Origin: Escherichia coli
GTDB lineage: Bacteria; Pseudomonadota; Gammaproteobacteria; Enterobacterales; Enterobacteriaceae
Strand: one strand, 5' to 3'
Assembly: GCF_013315695.1 (NCBI RefSeq)
Contig: NZ_CP054353.1
Length of the DNA: 64,000 bases
Positions 9,516 to 38,426 of this stretch are shown in pieces; the first letter of the stretch is position 1; every line of letters starts with the position of its first letter. The notes under the pieces are model-generated. The model ran no database searches and was not told the DNA's origin. It saw only the letters and a program-made list of their open reading frames with translations. The translations under genes and the position numbers were made by a program.

Positions 9516-9641
9516 ATACTCTAAATAATTCGAGTTGCAGGAAGGCGATAAGAGAGTGAATCCCCAGGAGCTTACAGAAGTAAGTGACTGGGGTGAGCGA
9601 ACGCAGACGCAGCACATGCAACTTGAAGTATGACGAGTATA
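9516..9641. repeat. ERIC/IRU intergenic repeat, copy 1 (126 bp)
   Basis: Contains gtgaatccccaggagcttacagaagtaagtgactggggtgagcg; near-identical in inverted orientation to 25169-25293. Confidence 0.75.
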
Positions 9642-18065: not shown

Positions 18066-19544
18066 ATGGAAACTCAGTGGACAAGGATGACCGCCGATGA
18101 AGCGGCAGAAATTATCCAGCATAACGACATGGTGGCATTTAGCGGCTTTACCCCAGCGGGTTCGCCGAAAGCCTTACCCACCGCGATTGCCCGCAGAGCT
18201 AACGAACAGCATGAGGCCAAAAAGCCGTATCAAATTCGCCTGCTGACGGGGGCGTCAATCAGCGCCGCCGCTGACGATGTACTTTCTGACGCCGATGCTG
18301 TTTCCTGGCGTGCGCCATATCAAACATCGTCCGGTTTACGTAAAAAGATCAATCAGGGCGCGGTGAGTTTCGTTGACCTGCATTTGAGCGAAGTGGCGCA
18401 AATGGTCAATTACGGTTTCTTCGGCGACATTGATGTTGCCGTCATTGAAGCATCGGCACTGGCACCGGATGGTCGAGTCTGGTTAACCAGCGGGATCGGT
18501 AATGCGCCGACCTGGCTGCTGCGAGCGAAGAAAGTGATCATTGAACTTAATCACTATCACGATCCGCGCGTTGCAGAACTGGCAGATATTGTGATTCCTG
18601 GCGCGCCACCGCGGCGCAATAGCGTGTCGATCTTCCATGCAATGGATCGCGTCGGTACCCGCTATGTGCAAATCGATCCGAAAAAGATTGTCGCCGTCGT
18701 GGAAACCAACTTGCCTGACGCCGGTAATATGCTGGATAAGCAAAATCCCATGTGCCAGCAGATTGCCGATAACGTGGTCACGTTCTTGTTGCAGGAAATG
18801 GCGCATGGGCGTATTCCGCCGGAATTTCTGCCGCTGCAAAGTGGCGTGGGCAATATCAATAATGCAGTCATGGCGCGACTAGGGGAAAACCCGGAAATTC
18901 CTCCGTTCATGATGTATTCGGAAGTGCTACAGGAATCGGTGGTGCATTTACTGGAAACGGGCAAAATCAGCGGGGCCAGCGCCTCCAGCCTGACTATCTC
19001 GGCCGATTCCCTGCGCAAGATTTACGACAATATGGATTACTTTGCCAGCCGCATTGTGTTGCGTCCGCAGGAAATTTCCAATAACCCGGAAATCATCCGT
19101 CGTCTGGGCGTCATCGCTCTGAACGTCGGCCTGGAGTTTGATATTTACGGGCATGCCAACTCAACGCACGTAGCCGGGGTCGATCTGATGAACGGCATCG
19201 GTGGCAGCGGTGATTTTGAACGCAACGCGTATTTGTCGATCTTTATGGCCCCGTCGATTGCTAAAGAAGGCAAGATCTCAACCGTCGTGCCAATGTGCAG
19301 CCATGTTGATCACAGCGAACACAGCGTCAAAGTGATCATCACCGAACAAGGGATCGCCGATCTGCGTGGTCTTTCCCCGCTTCAACGCGCCCGCACCATC
19401 ATTGATAATTGTGCACATCCTATGTATCGGGATTATCTGCATCGCTATCTGGAAAATGCGCCCGGCGGACATATTCACCACGATCTTAGCCACGTCTTTG
19501 ATTTACACCGTAATTTAATTGCAACCGGCTCGATGCTGGGTTAA
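18066..19544 (+). CDS. scpC: Propionyl-CoA:succinate CoA transferase (492 aa)
   Basis: ORF product METQWTRMTADEAAEIIQHNDMVAFSGFTPAGSPKALP... Confidence 0.95.
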   Translation: METQWTRMTADEAAEIIQHNDMVAFSGFTPAGSPKALPTAIARRANEQHEAKKPYQIRLLTGASISAAADDVLSDADAVSWRAPYQTSSGLRKKINQGAVSFVDLHLSEVAQMVNYGFFGDIDVAVIEASALAPDGRVWLTSGIGNAPTWLLRAKKVIIELNHYHDPRVAELADIVIPGAPPRRNSVSIFHAMDRVGTRYVQIDPKKIVAVVETNLPDAGNMLDKQNPMCQQIADNVVTFLLQEMAHGRIPPEFLPLQSGVGNINNAVMARLGENPEIPPFMMYSEVLQESVVHLLETGKISGASASSLTISADSLRKIYDNMDYFASRIVLRPQEISNNPEIIRRLGVIALNVGLEFDIYGHANSTHVAGVDLMNGIGGSGDFERNAYLSIFMAPSIAKEGKISTVVPMCSHVDHSEHSVKVIITEQGIADLRGLSPLQRARTIIDNCAHPMYRDYLHRYLENAPGGHIHHDLSHVFDLHRNLIATGSMLG

Positions 19545-20460
19545 TGACTCGTCCCGTCACGATCTTCAGCAATATGCTGAAGCATCGTGGCGGTATAACG
19601 ATGATTTCTGATTGAATAAAGATATTCCTGCATATACATCGGCCTGTGCGGCGCATCAAAATATTTCAGCGTTGCCGGATTCACCAGTCGCCAGGCAAAA
19701 TGCGGGATCACCGTCAGAAAATGTCCGCGCTCCACGGCGCTGATTTTGGCCATAAAACTGTAGGGACGATAAATAATGGTGGGATTGATCCCACAAGGAC
19801 GCATATTCGCATCAATCATTGCTTCGAAGTTAGCCCGGTTCTGAAAGCGCATTTGTAGCCAGGGTAGCTCCTGAAGCAGCTCTTGCTCTTGTCGCTCTTC
19901 ATAACGACGAGAAACGAGAAAGCCCAATCGCAGCGGCGGTAGTTCACTGATAGTCAGGTTTTCCAGTTCCTGAACTCGTGCAGACACATGCTGTGGGGAG
20001 ATTATAAAATCTAACTGACGGTCAAAAAGATTATCGATAACGCCGTTTTCGCTGAACTCAACTGGCTGGGCGGTCACGCCTTCATACTTATCTCCGAGAC
20101 TAATCAACTGATCGAAAATAATTGTCGGATAAGTATTATCTATGCCAATCACAATTTCTCGTGAACGACGCCCTGAGTTATGGATTTCATTATCAATCGC
20201 AGAAAGTCGTTGATAAACCGGGAACAGTTTTTGATACAGTTCCTGTCCGGCTTTATTGAGGCTGATATTATTATCTTTGCGGGTAAATAGCGTATAGCCA
20301 ATTTGTTCTTCCAGCGCGGCAATGCTTTTACCAAATGGCGAAGCCGTCATATACCAAATGGCGAAGCCGTCATATGGATTTTTTCTGCCGCCCGGGCAAT
20401 ATTATTGGTTTGCGCTAATAAAATGAAATTGCGCATCTTTTTCGAAATAAAAATGTCCAT
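19541..20460 (-). pseudogene. ygfI: LysR-family regulator ygfI, reading frame broken by a 23-bp tandem duplication
   Basis: N-terminal HTH frame MDIFISKKMRNFILLAQTNNIARAAEKIHMTASPFGI* terminates; downstream frame restarts MTASPFGKSIAALEEQ... (269-aa ORF 19541-20350). Confidence 0.75.
20331..20376. repeat. Direct tandem duplication of 23 bp (ccaaatggcgaagccgtcatat[a/g]) inside ygfI
   Basis: Two adjacent copies read directly at 20331-20353 and 20354-20376. Confidence 0.85.
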
Positions 20461-20627: not shown

Positions 20628-21368
20628 TTATTGTGCTGCCGGTGTTTTAGCGGGTTGTTGATCCACAGGTTCTAACTGGAAGACCACATCGACCTGATCA
20701 TCAAACTGAATAGCGGCCTGCTCGTAAGTTTCCTGGGCGGACACCGGCGCGGCATCGGCTTTCATCATCCGCACCATTGGGCTGGGCTGATAGTTGGAAA
20801 CATGGTAGCGCACGCTATATACCGGCCCCAGTTTACGATGAAAGCCGTTCGCCAGTTCCTGCGCCTGATGAATCGCGTTATCAATCGCTGCCTTACGCGC
20901 TTTGTCTTTATAGGCATCCGGCTGCGCCACGCCCAGCGACACAGAACGAATTTCGTTAAGACCCGCCTTCAGCGCGCCATCCAGCAAGGAATTCAGTTTG
21001 TCTAACTGACGGAGCGTGACTTCCACCGTTCTCACAGCACGGTAGCCTTTCAGGATACTTTTACCATCCTGATAATCATAATCTGGCTGGGTGCGTAAGT
21101 TCGCTGAGCTGATATCTTTTTTCGCGATCTGATTGAGTTCAAGGAAGGAAATGTATTGTGCGACGCGCTCATCCGCCTGTTTCTTGGCAGTAGCGGCATC
21201 CTTCGCGGCCACGTTGACTTCAATCGCAAGAGTGGCAATGTCTGGCACCGCATCCACGCTTGCCGTACCGGAGGTGACAATATGCGGTCCATCCGGCAAT
21301 TCGTTAGCCTGCGCTGCCATCCCGCTAATACCCATTAATGCCGCCAGGGCGATAACTTTGAACTTCAC
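20628..21368 (-). CDS. yggE: Periplasmic DUF541/SIMPL-like protein YggE (246 aa)
   Basis: ORF product MKFKVIALAALMGISGMAAQANELPDGPHIVTSGTASVDAVPD... Confidence 0.93.
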   Translation of the reverse strand: MKFKVIALAALMGISGMAAQANELPDGPHIVTSGTASVDAVPDIATLAIEVNVAAKDAATAKKQADERVAQYISFLELNQIAKKDISSANLRTQPDYDYQDGKSILKGYRAVRTVEVTLRQLDKLNSLLDGALKAGLNEIRSVSLGVAQPDAYKDKARKAAIDNAIHQAQELANGFHRKLGPVYSVRYHVSNYQPSPMVRMMKADAAPVSAQETYEQAAIQFDDQVDVVFQLEPVDQQPAKTPAAQ

Positions 21369-21961: not shown

Positions 21962-22016
21962 GGTGATGCTGCCAACTTACTGATTTAGTGTATGATGGTG
22001 TTTTTGAGGTGCTCCA

Positions 22017-22292
22017 GTGGCTTCTGTTTCTATCAGCTGTCCCTCCTGTTCAGCTACTGACGGGGTGGTGCGTAACGGCAAAAGCACCGCCGGACATCAG
22101 CGCTATCTCTGCTCTCACTGCCGTAAAACATGGCAACTGCAGTTCACTTACACCGCTTCTCAACCCGGTACGCACCAGAAAATCATTGATATGGCCATGA
22201 ATGGCGTTGGATGCCGGGCAACAGCCCGCATTATGGGCGTTGGCCTCAACACGATTTTACGTCACTTAAAAAACTCAGGCCGCAGTCGGTAA
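22017..22292 (+). CDS. insA: IS1 InsA (91 aa)
   Basis: GTG start; [43 protein letters not shown]... Confidence 0.95.
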
Positions 22293-22714
22293 CCTCGCGC
22301 ATACAGCCGGGCAGTGACGTCATCGTCTGCGCGGAAATGGACGAACAGTGGGGCTATGTCGGGGCTAAATCGCGCCAGCGCTGGCTGTTTTACGCGTATG
22401 ACAGGCTCCGGAAGACGGTTGTTGCGCACGTATTCGGTGAACGCACTATGGCGACGCTGGGGCGTCTTATGAGCCTGCTGTCACCCTTTGACGTGGTGAT
22501 ATGGATGACGGATGGCTGGCCGCTGTATGAATCCCGCCTGAAGGGAAAGCTGCACGTAATCAGCAAGCGATATACGCAGCGAATTGAGCGGCATAACCTG
22601 AATCTGAGGCAGCACCTGGCACGGCTGGGACGGAAGTCGCTGTCGTTCTCAAAATCGGTGGAGCTGCATGACAAAGTCATCGGGCATTATCTGAACATAA
22701 AACACTATCAATAA
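22211..22714 (+). CDS. insB: IS1 InsB reading frame (167 aa; expressed as InsAB fusion by -1 frameshift)
   Basis: Product ...[50 protein letters not shown]... Confidence 0.9.
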
Positions 22715-22729
22715 GTTGGAGTCATTACC

Positions 22730-25168: not shown

Positions 25169-25293
25169 TATACTCGTCATACTTCAAGTTGCATGTACTG
25201 CGTCTGCGTTCGCTCACCCCAGTCACTTACTTATGTAAGCTCATGGGATTCACTCTCTTGTCGCCTTCCTGCAACTCGAATTATTTAGAGTAT
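25169..25293. repeat. ERIC/IRU intergenic repeat, copy 2 (inverted relative to copy 1)
   Basis: cgctcaccccagtcacttacttatgtaagctcatgggattcac core; reverse complement aligns with 9516-9641 with a handful of mismatches. Confidence 0.75.
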
Positions 25294-31037: not shown

Positions 31038-31722
31038 CGGTCATCATTAAGGTCAAATTTGCAGGCAGACTCTCTTCCAGCACCCGGCGAACATTCGGCC
31101 CGTCGGTACGGTCATAAAAGGCTTCTGCGTCTGCCAGCGATAACCCTCCCGCCAGCTTGCGCCCCACCAGACGCTCCCGCAACGCAGATGCGGGAGCTTT
31201 GATAAAGATCGAGAAATCACAAAATTGCGCAAGCTGGCGCCACTTCTCGTCGTCCAGCAACAACCAGTTTCCTTCGACGATGACGAGTGGTGCGGTAACG
31301 TGCAACGCATCTTCAACAGGATCATGCTTTTGTCGATCGTACTGCGGCCACGTACAATCCCCTTCCACCACCTGGCGCAGATTTTCCGCCAGTTTCGCAA
31401 CGTCAAATGTCTCTGGTGCGCCTTTGAAGGGGCGCAATTGATGCGCGTCCAGCCAGCTATTGTAATGGTGAAAACCATCCATCGGGAGCGTCTGAATAGC
31501 GGGCAGCTCCGGGTCTTGTTGCGCGAGATATTCCCAGAAGGTGGTTAGGGTAGATTTACCCGTCCCCGGCGGAGCGCAAAGAAAAACCACCGTACGCCGC
31601 TGCGGATTTACCGTCTGTAAGGCCGCCAGCATACGCAGCAACGGTTTATGCACGCGTTCTATCTCTTCATCATGGTACTGTGCCTGTATCTTCAGCCCAT
31701 TCACCGTTAATTCAATTTTCAC
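31009..31722 (-). CDS. yggC: P-loop nucleoside/nucleotide kinase family protein YggC (237 aa)
   Basis: Product with P-loop CAPPGTGKSTL; position between epd and yggD. Confidence 0.9.
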   Translation of the reverse strand: MKIELTVNGLKIQAQYHDEEIERVHKPLLRMLAALQTVNPQRRTVVFLCAPPGTGKSTLTTFWEYLAQQDPELPAIQTLPMDGFHHYNSWLDAHQLRPFKGAPETFDVAKLAENLRQVVEGDCTWPQYDRQKHDPVEDALHVTAPLVIVEGNWLLLDDEKWRQLAQFCDFSIFIKAPASALRERLVGRKLAGGLSLADAEAFYDRTDGPNVRRVLEESLPANLTLMMTATGEYRLMD

Positions 31723-32228
31723 GGCGTTAATTCCTTTAAGGTGGTCGTTACTGCCAGCGTCAGCGCCGTTTTGACCATCCCGCTAAAACGCGCCTCTGAC
31801 CAGACGGCGAAATCGGCGAACTTCATCGCTTTCAACGCGTCATAGAGCGTCGCATTGCGGGTTATGCTATTGACGTTGCTGATAAAATCCCAGGTCATAT
31901 CATCAGCAAATCCGGGCGTTTCATCCTGTTCGTTCAGGTAATGCCAGAACTGGGAAAAATGCGTGATATCGGCGTACAGCCATTTATCCATTTTCCCCAG
32001 CGCATAAATCAAACGCAGTGCAACATCAATATCGTCAAGCGGGCCGCTTTGGGCGAGTAACGGCTTCACTGCATATTCGACGATCTCTTCATCGTTATCG
32101 ACAAACAGCGACGGCAGAAACTGGCGTATCCCCTGGAGCAAAATAGAATGCGCAGTATTCATAAATGAAAATAAATTGTCCTGTGCATCCAGTTGCTCAA
32201 GCACATCATCTTCTGTCAGCGTCGCCAT
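31719..32228 (-). CDS. yggD: MtlR/FumE-family protein YggD (169 aa)
   Basis: ORF product MATLTEDDVLEQLDAQDNLFSFMNTAHSILLQGIRQF... Confidence 0.9.
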   Translation of the reverse strand: MATLTEDDVLEQLDAQDNLFSFMNTAHSILLQGIRQFLPSLFVDNDEEIVEYAVKPLLAQSGPLDDIDVALRLIYALGKMDKWLYADITHFSQFWHYLNEQDETPGFADDMTWDFISNVNSITRNATLYDALKAMKFADFAVWSEARFSGMVKTALTLAVTTTLKELTP

Positions 32229-36252: not shown

Positions 36253-36307
36253 GGTGATGCTGCCAACTTACTGATTTAGTGTATGATGGTGTTTTTGAGG
36301 TGCTCCA

Positions 36308-36583
36308 GTGGCTTCTGTTTCTATCAGCTGTCCCTCCTGTTCAGCTACTGACGGGGTGGTGCGTAACGGCAAAAGCACCGCCGGACATCAGCGCTATCTC
36401 TGCTCTCACTGCCGTAAAACATGGCAACTGCAGTTCACTTACACCGCTTCTCAACCCGGTACGCACCAGAAAATCATTGATATGGCCATGAATGGCGTTG
36501 GATGCCGGGCAACAGCCCGCATTATGGGCGTTGGCCTCAACACGATTTTACGTCACTTAAAAAACTCAGGCCGCAGTCGGTAA
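36308..36583 (+). CDS. insA: IS1 InsA (91 aa)
   Basis: Translation identical to the 22017-22292 product. Confidence 0.95.
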
Positions 36584-37005
36584 CCTCGCGCATACAGCCG
36601 GGCAGTGACGTCATCGTCTGCGCGGAAATGGACGAACAGTGGGGCTATGTCGGGGCTAAATCGCGCCAGCGCTGGCTGTTTTACGCGTATGACAGGCTCC
36701 GGAAGACGGTTGTTGCGCACGTATTCGGTGAACGCACTATGGCGACGCTGGGGCGTCTTATGAGCCTGCTGTCACCCTTTGACGTGGTGATATGGATGAC
36801 GGATGGCTGGCCGCTGTATGAATCCCGCCTGAAGGGAAAGCTGCACGTAATCAGCAAGCGATATACGCAGCGAATTGAGCGGCATAACCTGAATCTGAGG
36901 CAGCACCTGGCACGGCTGGGACGGAAGTCGCTGTCGTTCTCAAAATCGGTGGAGCTGCATGACAAAGTCATCGGGCATTATCTGAACATAAAACACTATC
37001 AATAA
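36502..37005 (+). CDS. insB: IS1 InsB reading frame (167 aa)
   Basis: Translation identical to the 22211-22714 product. Confidence 0.9.
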
Positions 37006-37020
37006 GTTGGAGTCATTACC

Positions 37021-37517: not shown

Positions 37518-38426
37518 ATGAAAGCACCTGTTTCATTAACCTCATTTCGCCCACAAAAATCTCTTGCTATCGCCATTGGCGTGCTTGCCGTGGTTGTGCT
37601 GCCATTTCTCTCGTATTACACCGTTAATGAAGGTGAACGCGGCATTTTGCTGCGCTACGGAAAAATCGTAAAAGTTGCCGAGCCGGGTCTGGGTTTTAAG
37701 ATCCCGTTTATGGAAAGCGTGGAGAAAATTTCCACGCGTAATCAGGCTGTGGTCTATCAGGGATTACAGGCCTACAGCCGCGACCAGCAACCGGCACAAA
37801 TGACAGTATCAGTCAGCTTCCACATTAAACCTTCAGAAGCAGGCGCGGTTTATACCACCTACAACACCATTGAAGCATTAAAAGATCGTCTGATTGTCCG
37901 TCAGTTGCCAACTCAACTGGAGAACGTTTTCGGCCAATATACCGCCATCAGCGCTGTACAGGATCGTACAAAACTGGTTCAGGATCTGCAAAATGCCATG
38001 CGCAAAGCCGTTGTTGGGCCAGTGGTAATTGACGGGGTCCAGATTGAAAATATTGATTTTTCTGACGCTTATGAAAAGTCGATTGAAGACCGAATGAAAG
38101 CAGAAGTCGCCATTGCCACGCGTAAGCAAAATCTGGAAACAGAGAAAATCCAGGCGCAAATAGCGGTAACTCAGGCCCAGGCAGAAGCAGACAGTAAACT
38201 GGCGGCAGCTAAAGCAGAAGCGGAAACTATTCGCGTAAGAGGCGCGGCAGAGGCTGAAACTATTCGTTTAAAAAGTGCGGCTGAAGCAGAAGCGATCCGC
38301 CTGCGCGGTGAAGCTCTGCGGGATAATCCCGGACTTGTAGCCCTCACCACTGCCGAACGTTGGGACGGTAAACTGCCCGATACCATGATCCCCGGCAGCA
38401 CAGTTCCGTTTATCTCTACTAAGTAA
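37518..38426 (+). CDS. SPFH/band-7 (HflC-like) membrane protein with C-terminal Ala/Glu-rich repeat region (302 aa)
   Basis: N-terminal TM helix then YTVNEGERGILLRYGKIVKVAEPGLGFKIPFMESVEKISTRNQ, paralleling the HflC N-terminal SPFH signature. Confidence 0.8.
   Translation: MKAPVSLTSFRPQKSLAIAIGVLAVVVLPFLSYYTVNEGERGILLRYGKIVKVAEPGLGFKIPFMESVEKISTRNQAVVYQGLQAYSRDQQPAQMTVSVSFHIKPSEAGAVYTTYNTIEALKDRLIVRQLPTQLENVFGQYTAISAVQDRTKLVQDLQNAMRKAVVGPVVIDGVQIENIDFSDAYEKSIEDRMKAEVAIATRKQNLETEKIQAQIAVTQAQAEADSKLAAAKAEAETIRVRGAAEAETIRLKSAAEAEAIRLRGEALRDNPGLVALTTAERWDGKLPDTMIPGSTVPFISTK
38214..38312 (+). repeat. Three imperfect tandem 33-nt repeats inside the SPFH gene
   Basis: Units encode AEAETIRVRGA / AEAETIRLKSA / AEAEAIRLRGE. 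Confidence 0.7.

What the first reader, a model, noticed from the sequence alone, without database searches (positions are those of the whole stretch)
20331..20376. 23-bp tandem duplication frameshifts the LysR-family gene ygfI
Two adjacent copies of ccaaatggcgaagccgtcata split the gene: the N-terminal HTH frame ends ...KIHMTASPFGI*, and the rest restarts at MTASPFGK.... The duplication length is not a multiple of three, so this is either a pseudogene or an HTH-less truncated regulator. ygfI lies next to the sbm-argK-ygfG-ygfH operon, which it could plausibly regulate.
Basis: seen in the sequence. Interest (0 to 1): 0.55.

Follow-up and report, generated by a model that had tools for sequence, protein, structure and literature searches.

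The report
Private frameshift duplication inactivating srsR (ygfI)
A perfect 23-base tandem duplication, seen in this E. coli genome and in no other public sequence searched, breaks the reading frame of the known stress regulator gene srsR (ygfI); it is an ordinary, very recent loss-of-function mutation.

Summary
Window 20329-20374 holds two perfect head-to-tail copies of TACCAAATGGCGAAGCCGTCATA inside srsR/ygfI on the minus strand (920 nt here, 897 nt when intact). Removing one copy restores a gene identical to the intact srsR of E. coli MSB1_4I. That strain differs from the whole 64-kb window by only 7 SNPs and this one indel.

The novel junction is absent from 5,426 complete E. coli genomes, from a 100,044-species genome set and from 241 million metagenome records. 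It is therefore private to this genome and recent.

The +23 nt shifts the frame at codon 37, in the recognition helix of the LysR-type winged helix-turn-helix. Two ORFs result, joined by an ATGA stop/start overlap: a 37-aa peptide and a 269-aa product equal to residues 30-298. Neither carries a complete DNA-binding domain, so the best reading is a null or near-null allele.

The suggestion that SrsR regulates the neighbouring scp/sbm operon is not supported. The genes are convergent, no SrsR box lies upstream of scpA, and the published target lists do not include that operon. An assembly artefact cannot be excluded without reads, but the assembly is otherwise clean. Other genomes carry independent IS1 insertions in the same 5' part of srsR. 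Interest is low.

The parts
20329..20351 (-). Copy 1 (on the + strand) of the 23-nt unit TACCAAATGGCGAAGCCGTCATA. In gene sense it is the second copy, allele nt 110-132. It contains the ATG that opens the 269-aa ORF and the TGA that closes the 37-aa ORF.
20352..20374 (-). Copy 2 (on the + strand) of the 23-nt unit. In gene sense it is the first copy, gene nt 87-109, covering codons H29 (third base) to K37 (first base).
20347..20460 (-). N-terminal ORF of the broken srsR: 37 aa, MDIFISKKMRNFILLAQTNNIARAAEKIHMTASPFGI*. It consists of native residues 1-36 plus one frameshifted residue. It uses the native start codon, which is preceded by GGGGGAGGGGGT (a Shine-Dalgarno-like GGAGG).
19541..20350 (-). 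C-terminal ORF of the broken srsR: 269 aa, equal to native residues 30-298. It holds the recognition-helix and wing residues, the linker, and the LysR_substrate domain. Its ATG overlaps the upstream TGA (ATGA), and there is no Shine-Dalgarno-like sequence upstream.
19541..20460 (-). The whole srsR (ygfI) locus, 920 nt here against 897 nt when intact. It lies between scpC (18066-19544, +, convergent, 4-nt overlap) and yggE (20628-21368, -).

Best explanation
This is a recent, strain-private loss-of-function allele of the LysR-type stress regulator gene srsR (ygfI).

A 23-nt stretch (gene nt 87-109) was copied in tandem, most likely by a replication template-switch or slippage error with only 1 nt of microhomology at the ends. 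That mechanism is inferred.

The extra 23 nt shift the frame after G36. Ribosomes starting at the native, well-signalled start codon make a 37-aa peptide and stop at a TGA. That TGA overlaps an ATG (ATGA) from which residues 30-298 could be made at a low level by termination-reinitiation. This step is also inferred, and there is no Shine-Dalgarno sequence there.

Neither product holds a complete winged helix-turn-helix, so the cell should lack DNA-binding SrsR. It should then behave like the published srsR deletion mutants: lower stationary-phase expression of SrsR targets, more biofilm, lower H2O2 survival, and poorer growth on glycerol. The phenotype is inferred from K-12 data and was not tested in this strain.
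For: Shown directly:
- A perfect 2 x 23 nt array, the only one in the window.
- The two ORFs and the ATGA overlap.
- Collapsing the duplication gives a gene identical to the intact srsR of MSB1_4I, WP_000350807.1.
- The whole 64-kb window differs from MSB1_4I by 7 SNPs and this single indel, with no homopolymer indels. The assembly is clean and the event is recent.
- The junction has no match in 5,426 complete E. coli genomes, in 100,044 species-representative genomes, or in 241 million metagenome records.
- Nearly all complete E. coli genomes (5,405 of 5,426) carry the gene at 80% or more coverage in one piece.
- HTH_1 covers residues 8-65 and LysR_substrate covers 89-283 of the intact protein. 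Solved LysR regulators align over residues 7-69.
- The 269-aa product has only a 'faint' HTH_1 hit.

From the literature, phenotypes of srsR/ygfI deletion: PMC9181523 and bioRxiv 10.1101/2021.12.22.473864.
Against: - No read data are available, so a sequencing or assembly error cannot be ruled out.
- No second assembly with the same junction was found. This fits a private mutation but gives no independent confirmation.
- The mechanism of the duplication is not established. Microhomology is only 1 nt. The small hairpin inside the unit (ATGGCG-AAGC-CGTCAT) is not significantly more stable than in shuffled sequences (-3 kcal/mol, z = -1.8).
- Whether the 269-aa product is made, and whether it has any residual activity, is untested.
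- One published SrsR target (fucAO) could not be confirmed by another laboratory (PMC11011485), so the expected phenotype is itself uncertain.
Confidence: 0.8

Rival explanations
1. Assembly or sequencing artefact: the strain really has one copy of the 23-mer and an intact srsR.
For: The junction occurs in no other public sequence searched. A very close relative has the intact gene. Many public assemblies carry spurious-looking frameshifts in this same gene at the A6 run.
Against: The usual errors are homopolymer indels. The window has none in 64 kb relative to MSB1_4I, and this is its only indel. A perfect 23-nt tandem copy in unique sequence is not a typical product of short-read or long-read assemblers (general knowledge, not tested here). 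It is not at a repeat boundary, as the nearest IS1 is 1.6 kb away.
Confidence: 0.1
2. The 269-aa product (SrsR lacking residues 1-29) is made in useful amounts and acts as a truncated regulator without its own DNA-binding activity. It might do so by binding the unknown effector or by forming oligomers through the linker helix and effector-binding domain.
For: The ATGA stop/start overlap is the classic arrangement for translational coupling. The LysR_substrate domain and linker are intact.
Against: There is no Shine-Dalgarno-like sequence in the 20 nt before the second ATG. No intact SrsR partner exists in the cell for a dominant-negative effect. The allele is private to one genome, so selection shows no sign of retaining it. 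Proteins missing part of a small three-helix bundle are usually unstable (general knowledge).
Confidence: 0.05
3. The duplication is a reversible off-switch. The two perfect 23-nt repeats can collapse by slippage to restore the wild-type gene exactly, so the population flips srsR off and on, and srsR loss is selected in some niches.
For: Collapse of the repeat restores the intact gene exactly. The 5' part of srsR is disrupted independently by IS1 at six or more different sites in other complete genomes. An srsR deletion raises biofilm formation (PMC9181523), and repression of ygfI improved a production trait in an evolved strain (PMC8851715).
Against: Only this genome has two copies. All 5,426 complete genomes lack the junction and none shows three or more copies, so there is no copy-number variation of the kind seen at true contingency loci. 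IS1 insertions may simply reflect the AT-rich target (41% GC in the first 140 nt). They are rare overall: 10 IS1-disrupted srsR alleles were seen among the 30 listed hits of 5,426 genomes; seven were mapped.
Confidence: 0.05

Closest known systems
Intact srsR (ygfI, b2921; proposed alternative name dhfA) of E. coli, e.g. WP_000350807.1
   Same: Same locus, same neighbours (scpC and yggE), and a sequence identical once one 23-nt copy is removed. It is a LysR-type regulator with HTH_1 (8-65) and LysR_substrate (89-283) domains.
   Different: Here the reading frame is broken at codon 37, and no single product carries both domains.
srsR::IS1 alleles in complete E. coli genomes (FMU073332, WS1933D, E41, RIVM_C039629, JNEC-KY203, EC13, E1 and others)
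   Same: They are independent disruptions of the same 5' HTH-coding part of srsR (gene nt about 45-140), and RefSeq annotates several of them as partial or pseudogene.
   Different: Those alleles carry 768-bp IS1 insertions with target duplications of about 9 bp. The window allele has no mobile-element sequence, only a 23-nt copy of the gene itself.
Frameshift alleles at the A6 run of srsR (A5 or A7, gene nt 76-81)
   Same: They give the same 269-aa C-terminal ORF starting at M30.
   Different: They are single-base homopolymer changes, several in assemblies with many other frameshifts. A5 is in only 1 of 5,426 complete RefSeq genomes, so many are probably sequencing errors. The 23-nt duplication is a different kind of event.
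Spontaneous short tandem duplications that cause frameshifts in bacterial genes (for example those described in classical lacI mutation spectra; from general knowledge, not checked here)
   Same: A head-to-tail copy of a few to a few tens of bases, arising with little or no flanking homology, inactivating a gene and able to revert precisely.
   Different: Nothing distinguishes this case from the general class except its location.

Membership tests
LysR-type transcriptional regulator (SrsR orthologue) | N-terminal winged helix-turn-helix (Pfam HTH_1, PF00126) on the same polypeptide as the effector domain | tested here: not met
   In the intact reference, HTH_1 lies at residues 8-65. In the window the domain is split at residue 30/37 between a 37-aa ORF and a 269-aa ORF. 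The 269-aa product has only a faint HTH_1 hit.
LysR-type transcriptional regulator (SrsR orthologue) | C-terminal LysR_substrate domain (PF03466) | tested here: met
   It covers residues 89-283 of the intact protein and is present in the 269-aa product.
LysR-type transcriptional regulator (SrsR orthologue) | Orthologous position and sequence (between scpC and yggE; near-identity to annotated srsR) | tested here: met
   The gene is identical to MSB1_4I srsR after removal of one repeat copy.
Frameshift pseudogene | The reading frame is broken relative to intact orthologues, with no compensating change, and the intact form is present in close relatives | tested here: met
   +23 nt, with a stop after 37 codons. 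The gene is intact in MSB1_4I, which differs by 7 SNPs in 64 kb. It is present at 80% or more coverage in 5,405 of 5,426 complete genomes.
Frameshift pseudogene | Loss of the protein's function in the cell | not testable with these tools
   This needs protein detection and phenotype or transcript assays in this strain.
Phase-variable contingency locus (repeat-number switching) | Repeat copy number varies among strains or within populations | tested here: not met
   The junction of two copies is absent from all 5,426 complete genomes, the species-representative genomes and the metagenome records. Every other srsR sequence read here has one copy. Variation within a population cannot be tested without reads.
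Insertion-sequence footprint (target-site duplication left after excision) | A duplication of the length made by a known element, with element remnants or a known insertion at that site | tested here: not met
   No foreign bases lie between the copies. The IS1 copies in this window and in srsR of other strains make 9-bp duplications at other positions. 23 nt is outside the range known for bacterial IS elements (general knowledge).
Classical LysR regulator / adjacent target operon pair (with scpA-meaB-scpB-scpC) | The regulator is transcribed divergently from the target promoter and has a binding site in the shared intergenic region | tested here: not met
   srsR is convergent with the last gene, scpC. 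No SrsR box with up to 2 mismatches lies in the argP-scpA intergenic region. The scp genes are absent from the published target lists.

The most novel reading that the evidence does not exclude
The perfect 23-nt duplication is a reversible lesion, because precise collapse restores srsR. It would be one of several recurrent, independently arising knock-outs of the 5' end of srsR (IS1 at six or more sites in other strains). On this reading, loss of this stationary-phase stress and biofilm regulator is repeatedly selected in host-associated E. coli. Premature translation termination might also alter the convergent, overlapping transcription into scpC (a candidate excludon).
Probability: 0.07. Interest if true: 0.4.

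Novelty: new member of a known kind. Interest (0 to 1): 0.12.

Why it matters
The finding matters little beyond this strain. If the duplication is real, the strain is a natural srsR-null relative of MSB1_4I, differing by about 1 SNP per 9 kb in this region. Such a pair could serve as a near-isogenic comparison for SrsR-dependent traits (biofilm, H2O2 tolerance, glycerol growth). For annotation, the locus should be called a frameshifted pseudogene rather than two genes. The recurrent IS1 hits in the same part of srsR in other genomes are a more interesting lead than the duplication itself.

Tried and rejected
- **Search for the same allele elsewhere.** The junction 36-mer was run against 5,426 complete E. 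coli genomes. The junction 32-mer was run against species-representative genomes and metagenome contigs. All found nothing.
- **Exact look-up of the 37-aa peptide.** It is not on record.
- **Exact look-up of the 269-aa product.** It is on record in 516 blocks, but all 10 loci read have A5/A7 homopolymer changes rather than the duplication, so this look-up cannot discriminate.
- **Look-up of the truncated argO product to find clone-mates.** It returned three contigs of a different lineage (about 97% identity) without the duplication.
- **IS1-related origin.** The top BLAST hits looked as if IS1 might sit between the repeat copies. Reading them showed ordinary 9-bp target duplications at other positions, so this idea was rejected.
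- **Hairpin-driven duplication.** The predicted DNA hairpin in the unit is weak and not significant against shuffles. It remains an untested idea only.
- **Single-sequence AlphaFold model of SrsR.** Mean pLDDT was 42, which is unusable for mapping helices. Pfam coordinates and alignments to solved LysR structures were used instead.
- **A7 allele count.** The search gave no match, but the query may have been masked by the low-complexity filter, so it is inconclusive.
- **Literature search for reported ygfI pseudogenes.** It found nothing specific.

Full report
**1. The observation**

The sequence at 20329-20374 is TACCAAATGGCGAAGCCGTCATA written twice with nothing between the copies.
- Tandem Repeats Finder gives period 23, 2.0 copies, 100% matches and score 94.
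- The 23-mer occurs only at these two places in the window, even with two mismatches allowed, against zero expected in shuffles.
- No other perfect tandem repeat exists in the 64 kb.
- The repeat register can slide by one base (20329-20375), because the base after the second copy is again T. The ancestral sequence therefore had only 1 nt of microhomology at the duplication ends.

**2. What it sits in**

The array lies on the minus strand in a 920-nt stretch (19541-20460). This stretch matches srsR, 'LysR family transcriptional regulator SrsR' (the former ygfI), in 5,425 of 5,426 complete E. coli genomes. There the gene is 897 nt.

The neighbours are as in other E. coli. scpC (18066-19544, +) is convergent with srsR and overlaps it by 4 nt. 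yggE (20628-21368, -) lies upstream.

In gene coordinates the duplicated unit is nt 87-109. The frame shifts after G36.
- The native frame reads M1...H29-MTASPFG-I and stops at a TGA, giving 37 aa (20347-20460).
- The ATG of the second copy overlaps that TGA (ATGA) and opens a 269-aa ORF that equals native residues 30-298 (19541-20350).

Pfam places HTH_1 at residues 8-65 and LysR_substrate at 89-283 of the intact protein. Solved LysR regulators align to residues 7-69.

The break therefore falls inside the DNA-binding domain. By comparison with the LysR consensus (established knowledge), it sits at the start of the recognition helix. The 37-aa peptide holds the first two helices. The 269-aa product holds the recognition helix, the wing, the linker and the effector domain. 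Precomputed Pfam hits for the 269-aa product show only a 'faint' HTH_1.

**3. How recent and how widespread**

The closest complete genome is E. coli MSB1_4I (a human rectal swab isolate from Australia).
- Over window 1-42000 it differs by 6 SNPs and one 23-nt gap.
- Over 41919-64000 it differs by one SNP.
- It shares the IS1 insertions in argO and cmtB.
- Its srsR is intact (WP_000350807.1).
- The window allele with one copy removed is identical to it.

A query made only of the novel junction finds nothing in the 5,426 complete E. coli genomes. It also finds nothing in one genome for each of 100,044 species or in 241 million metagenome records. The duplication is therefore private to this genome and arose after its split from a very close relative. 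MSB1_4I has its own private lesion, a nonsense codon in fumE that is intact here. This is the normal pattern of microevolution between sister strains.

**4. Real or artefact**

I could not see reads. Against an artefact:
- The window has no homopolymer indels, or any other indel, relative to MSB1_4I in 64 kb.
- The site is in unique sequence 1.6 kb from the nearest IS1.

For an artefact, only the lack of independent confirmation counts. I give it about 10%.

Look-ups that might have supplied a second assembly failed or were uninformative.
- The 37-aa peptide is not on record.
- The 269-aa product is on record in many assemblies, but the ten read all carry A5 or A7 in place of the A6 run just upstream. 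Several of these assemblies have many other broken genes.
- Among complete RefSeq genomes, A5 occurs once. The A7 query returned nothing and may have been masked.

**5. Mechanism**

*Origin (inferred).* The most likely cause is a replication template-switch or slippage error that copied 23 nt. The unit contains a small hairpin (ATGGCG-AAGC-CGTCAT), but its predicted stability is not significant against shuffles, so I do not lean on it. An insertion-sequence footprint is rejected. There are no foreign bases, and IS1 makes 9-bp duplications here and in other strains.

*Consequence (partly shown, partly inferred).* The frameshift and the two ORFs are shown directly. Translation of the 37-aa ORF is likely, because the native start is preceded by GGAGG. 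Reinitiation at the ATGA is possible but probably inefficient, since there is no Shine-Dalgarno-like sequence in the preceding 20 nt. Neither product has a full winged helix-turn-helix, so I expect no DNA binding and a null phenotype.

*Expected phenotype (from the literature).* In K-12, srsR deletion lowered stationary-phase transcripts of its targets, increased biofilm, and lowered survival in 30 mM H2O2 from 1.3% to 0.18% (PMC9181523). A second study reported binding upstream of dhaKLM and poorer growth on glycerol (bioRxiv 10.1101/2021.12.22.473864). One reported target, fucAO, was not confirmed by another group (PMC11011485).

**6. The scp/sbm operon idea**

Four points count against regulation of the neighbouring operon by SrsR.
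- The arrangement is convergent, not the divergent regulator-target layout typical of LysR pairs.
- The published 11-nt SrsR box has no match with up to 2 mismatches in the argP-scpA intergenic region, and no exact match anywhere in the window.
- The SrsR paper does not mention scp, sbm or methylmalonyl at all.
- The only published link is that scpC-ygfI appears in a list of candidate convergent excludons, meaning overlapping transcripts (PMC12288877). That is a cis effect, not regulation by the protein.

**7. Comparison with what is known, and novelty**

The gene, its family and this kind of mutation are all known. What is new is only this allele.

In the survey of complete genomes, the ten best-ranked hits all carry IS1 in the same 5' part of srsR. 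The seven I read have it at six or seven different positions (gene nt about 45-140) and in both orientations, so these are independent events. This may reflect IS1's liking for AT-rich DNA, as the first 140 nt are 41% GC. It could also reflect selection for loss of srsR. I did not resolve this. These insertions are rare overall: 10 were seen among 5,426 genomes, and 5,405 genomes carry the gene in one piece at 80% or more coverage.

**8. Verdict**

It is imprecise on 'HTH-less' and unsupported on regulation of the neighbouring operon.
- This is an ordinary, recent, private loss-of-function mutation in a characterised regulator.
- Interest is 0.12.
- The most novel reading not excluded is a reversible, selected knock-out within a recurrent pattern of srsR loss. 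I give it about 7%.

Noticed in passing
L001, L015-L020 (srsR gene nt about 45-140); corresponds to window about 20320-20415: IS1 is inserted in the 5' HTH-coding part of srsR in at least ten complete E. coli genomes. The seven read have six or seven different insertion points and both orientations, so they are independent hits. This could be an IS1 hot spot or recurrent selection for srsR loss.
   Followed up: partly
window 20380-20385 (the A6 run, gene nt 76-81); L004-L013: Many public assemblies (516 index blocks) encode the same 269-aa SrsR fragment. All ten read have A5 or A7 instead of A6, often in assemblies with other broken genes. Only 1 of 5,426 complete RefSeq genomes has A5. Most are probably homopolymer sequencing errors.
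   Followed up: partly
window 21962-22729 and 36253-37020: Two IS1 copies with 9-bp target duplications interrupt argO (CAAATCGCT) and cmtB (CTCGCTGAT). Both are shared with strain MSB1_4I.
   Followed up: yes
window 31719-32228 (-), SNP at 32135: fumE is intact in the window but has a Q32-to-stop change in the sister strain MSB1_4I. Each strain carries its own private inactivating mutation.
   Followed up: yes
window 9516-9641 and 25169-25293: A pair of 126-nt sequences, 96% identical and in inverted orientation, lies in two intergenic regions. The size fits an ERIC/IRU element, but this was not tested.
   Followed up: no
window 38214-38291: An imperfect tandem repeat with period 33, 2.4 copies and 77% matches.
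   Followed up: no
window 19541-19544: srsR and scpC are convergent and overlap by 4 nt. The pair is listed as a candidate excludon in PMC12288877. Premature translation termination in srsR might change antisense transcription into scpC.
   Followed up: no
L021 1518-3517, L022 1518-2056: In a metagenome contig and a Logan contig from another lineage (about 97% identity), srsR is called as three short ORFs (91, 97 and 103 aa in L021) and in L021 a methylmalonyl-CoA-mutase ORF follows directly. This suggests a decayed srsR and, in L021, a deletion inside the scp operon.
   Followed up: partly
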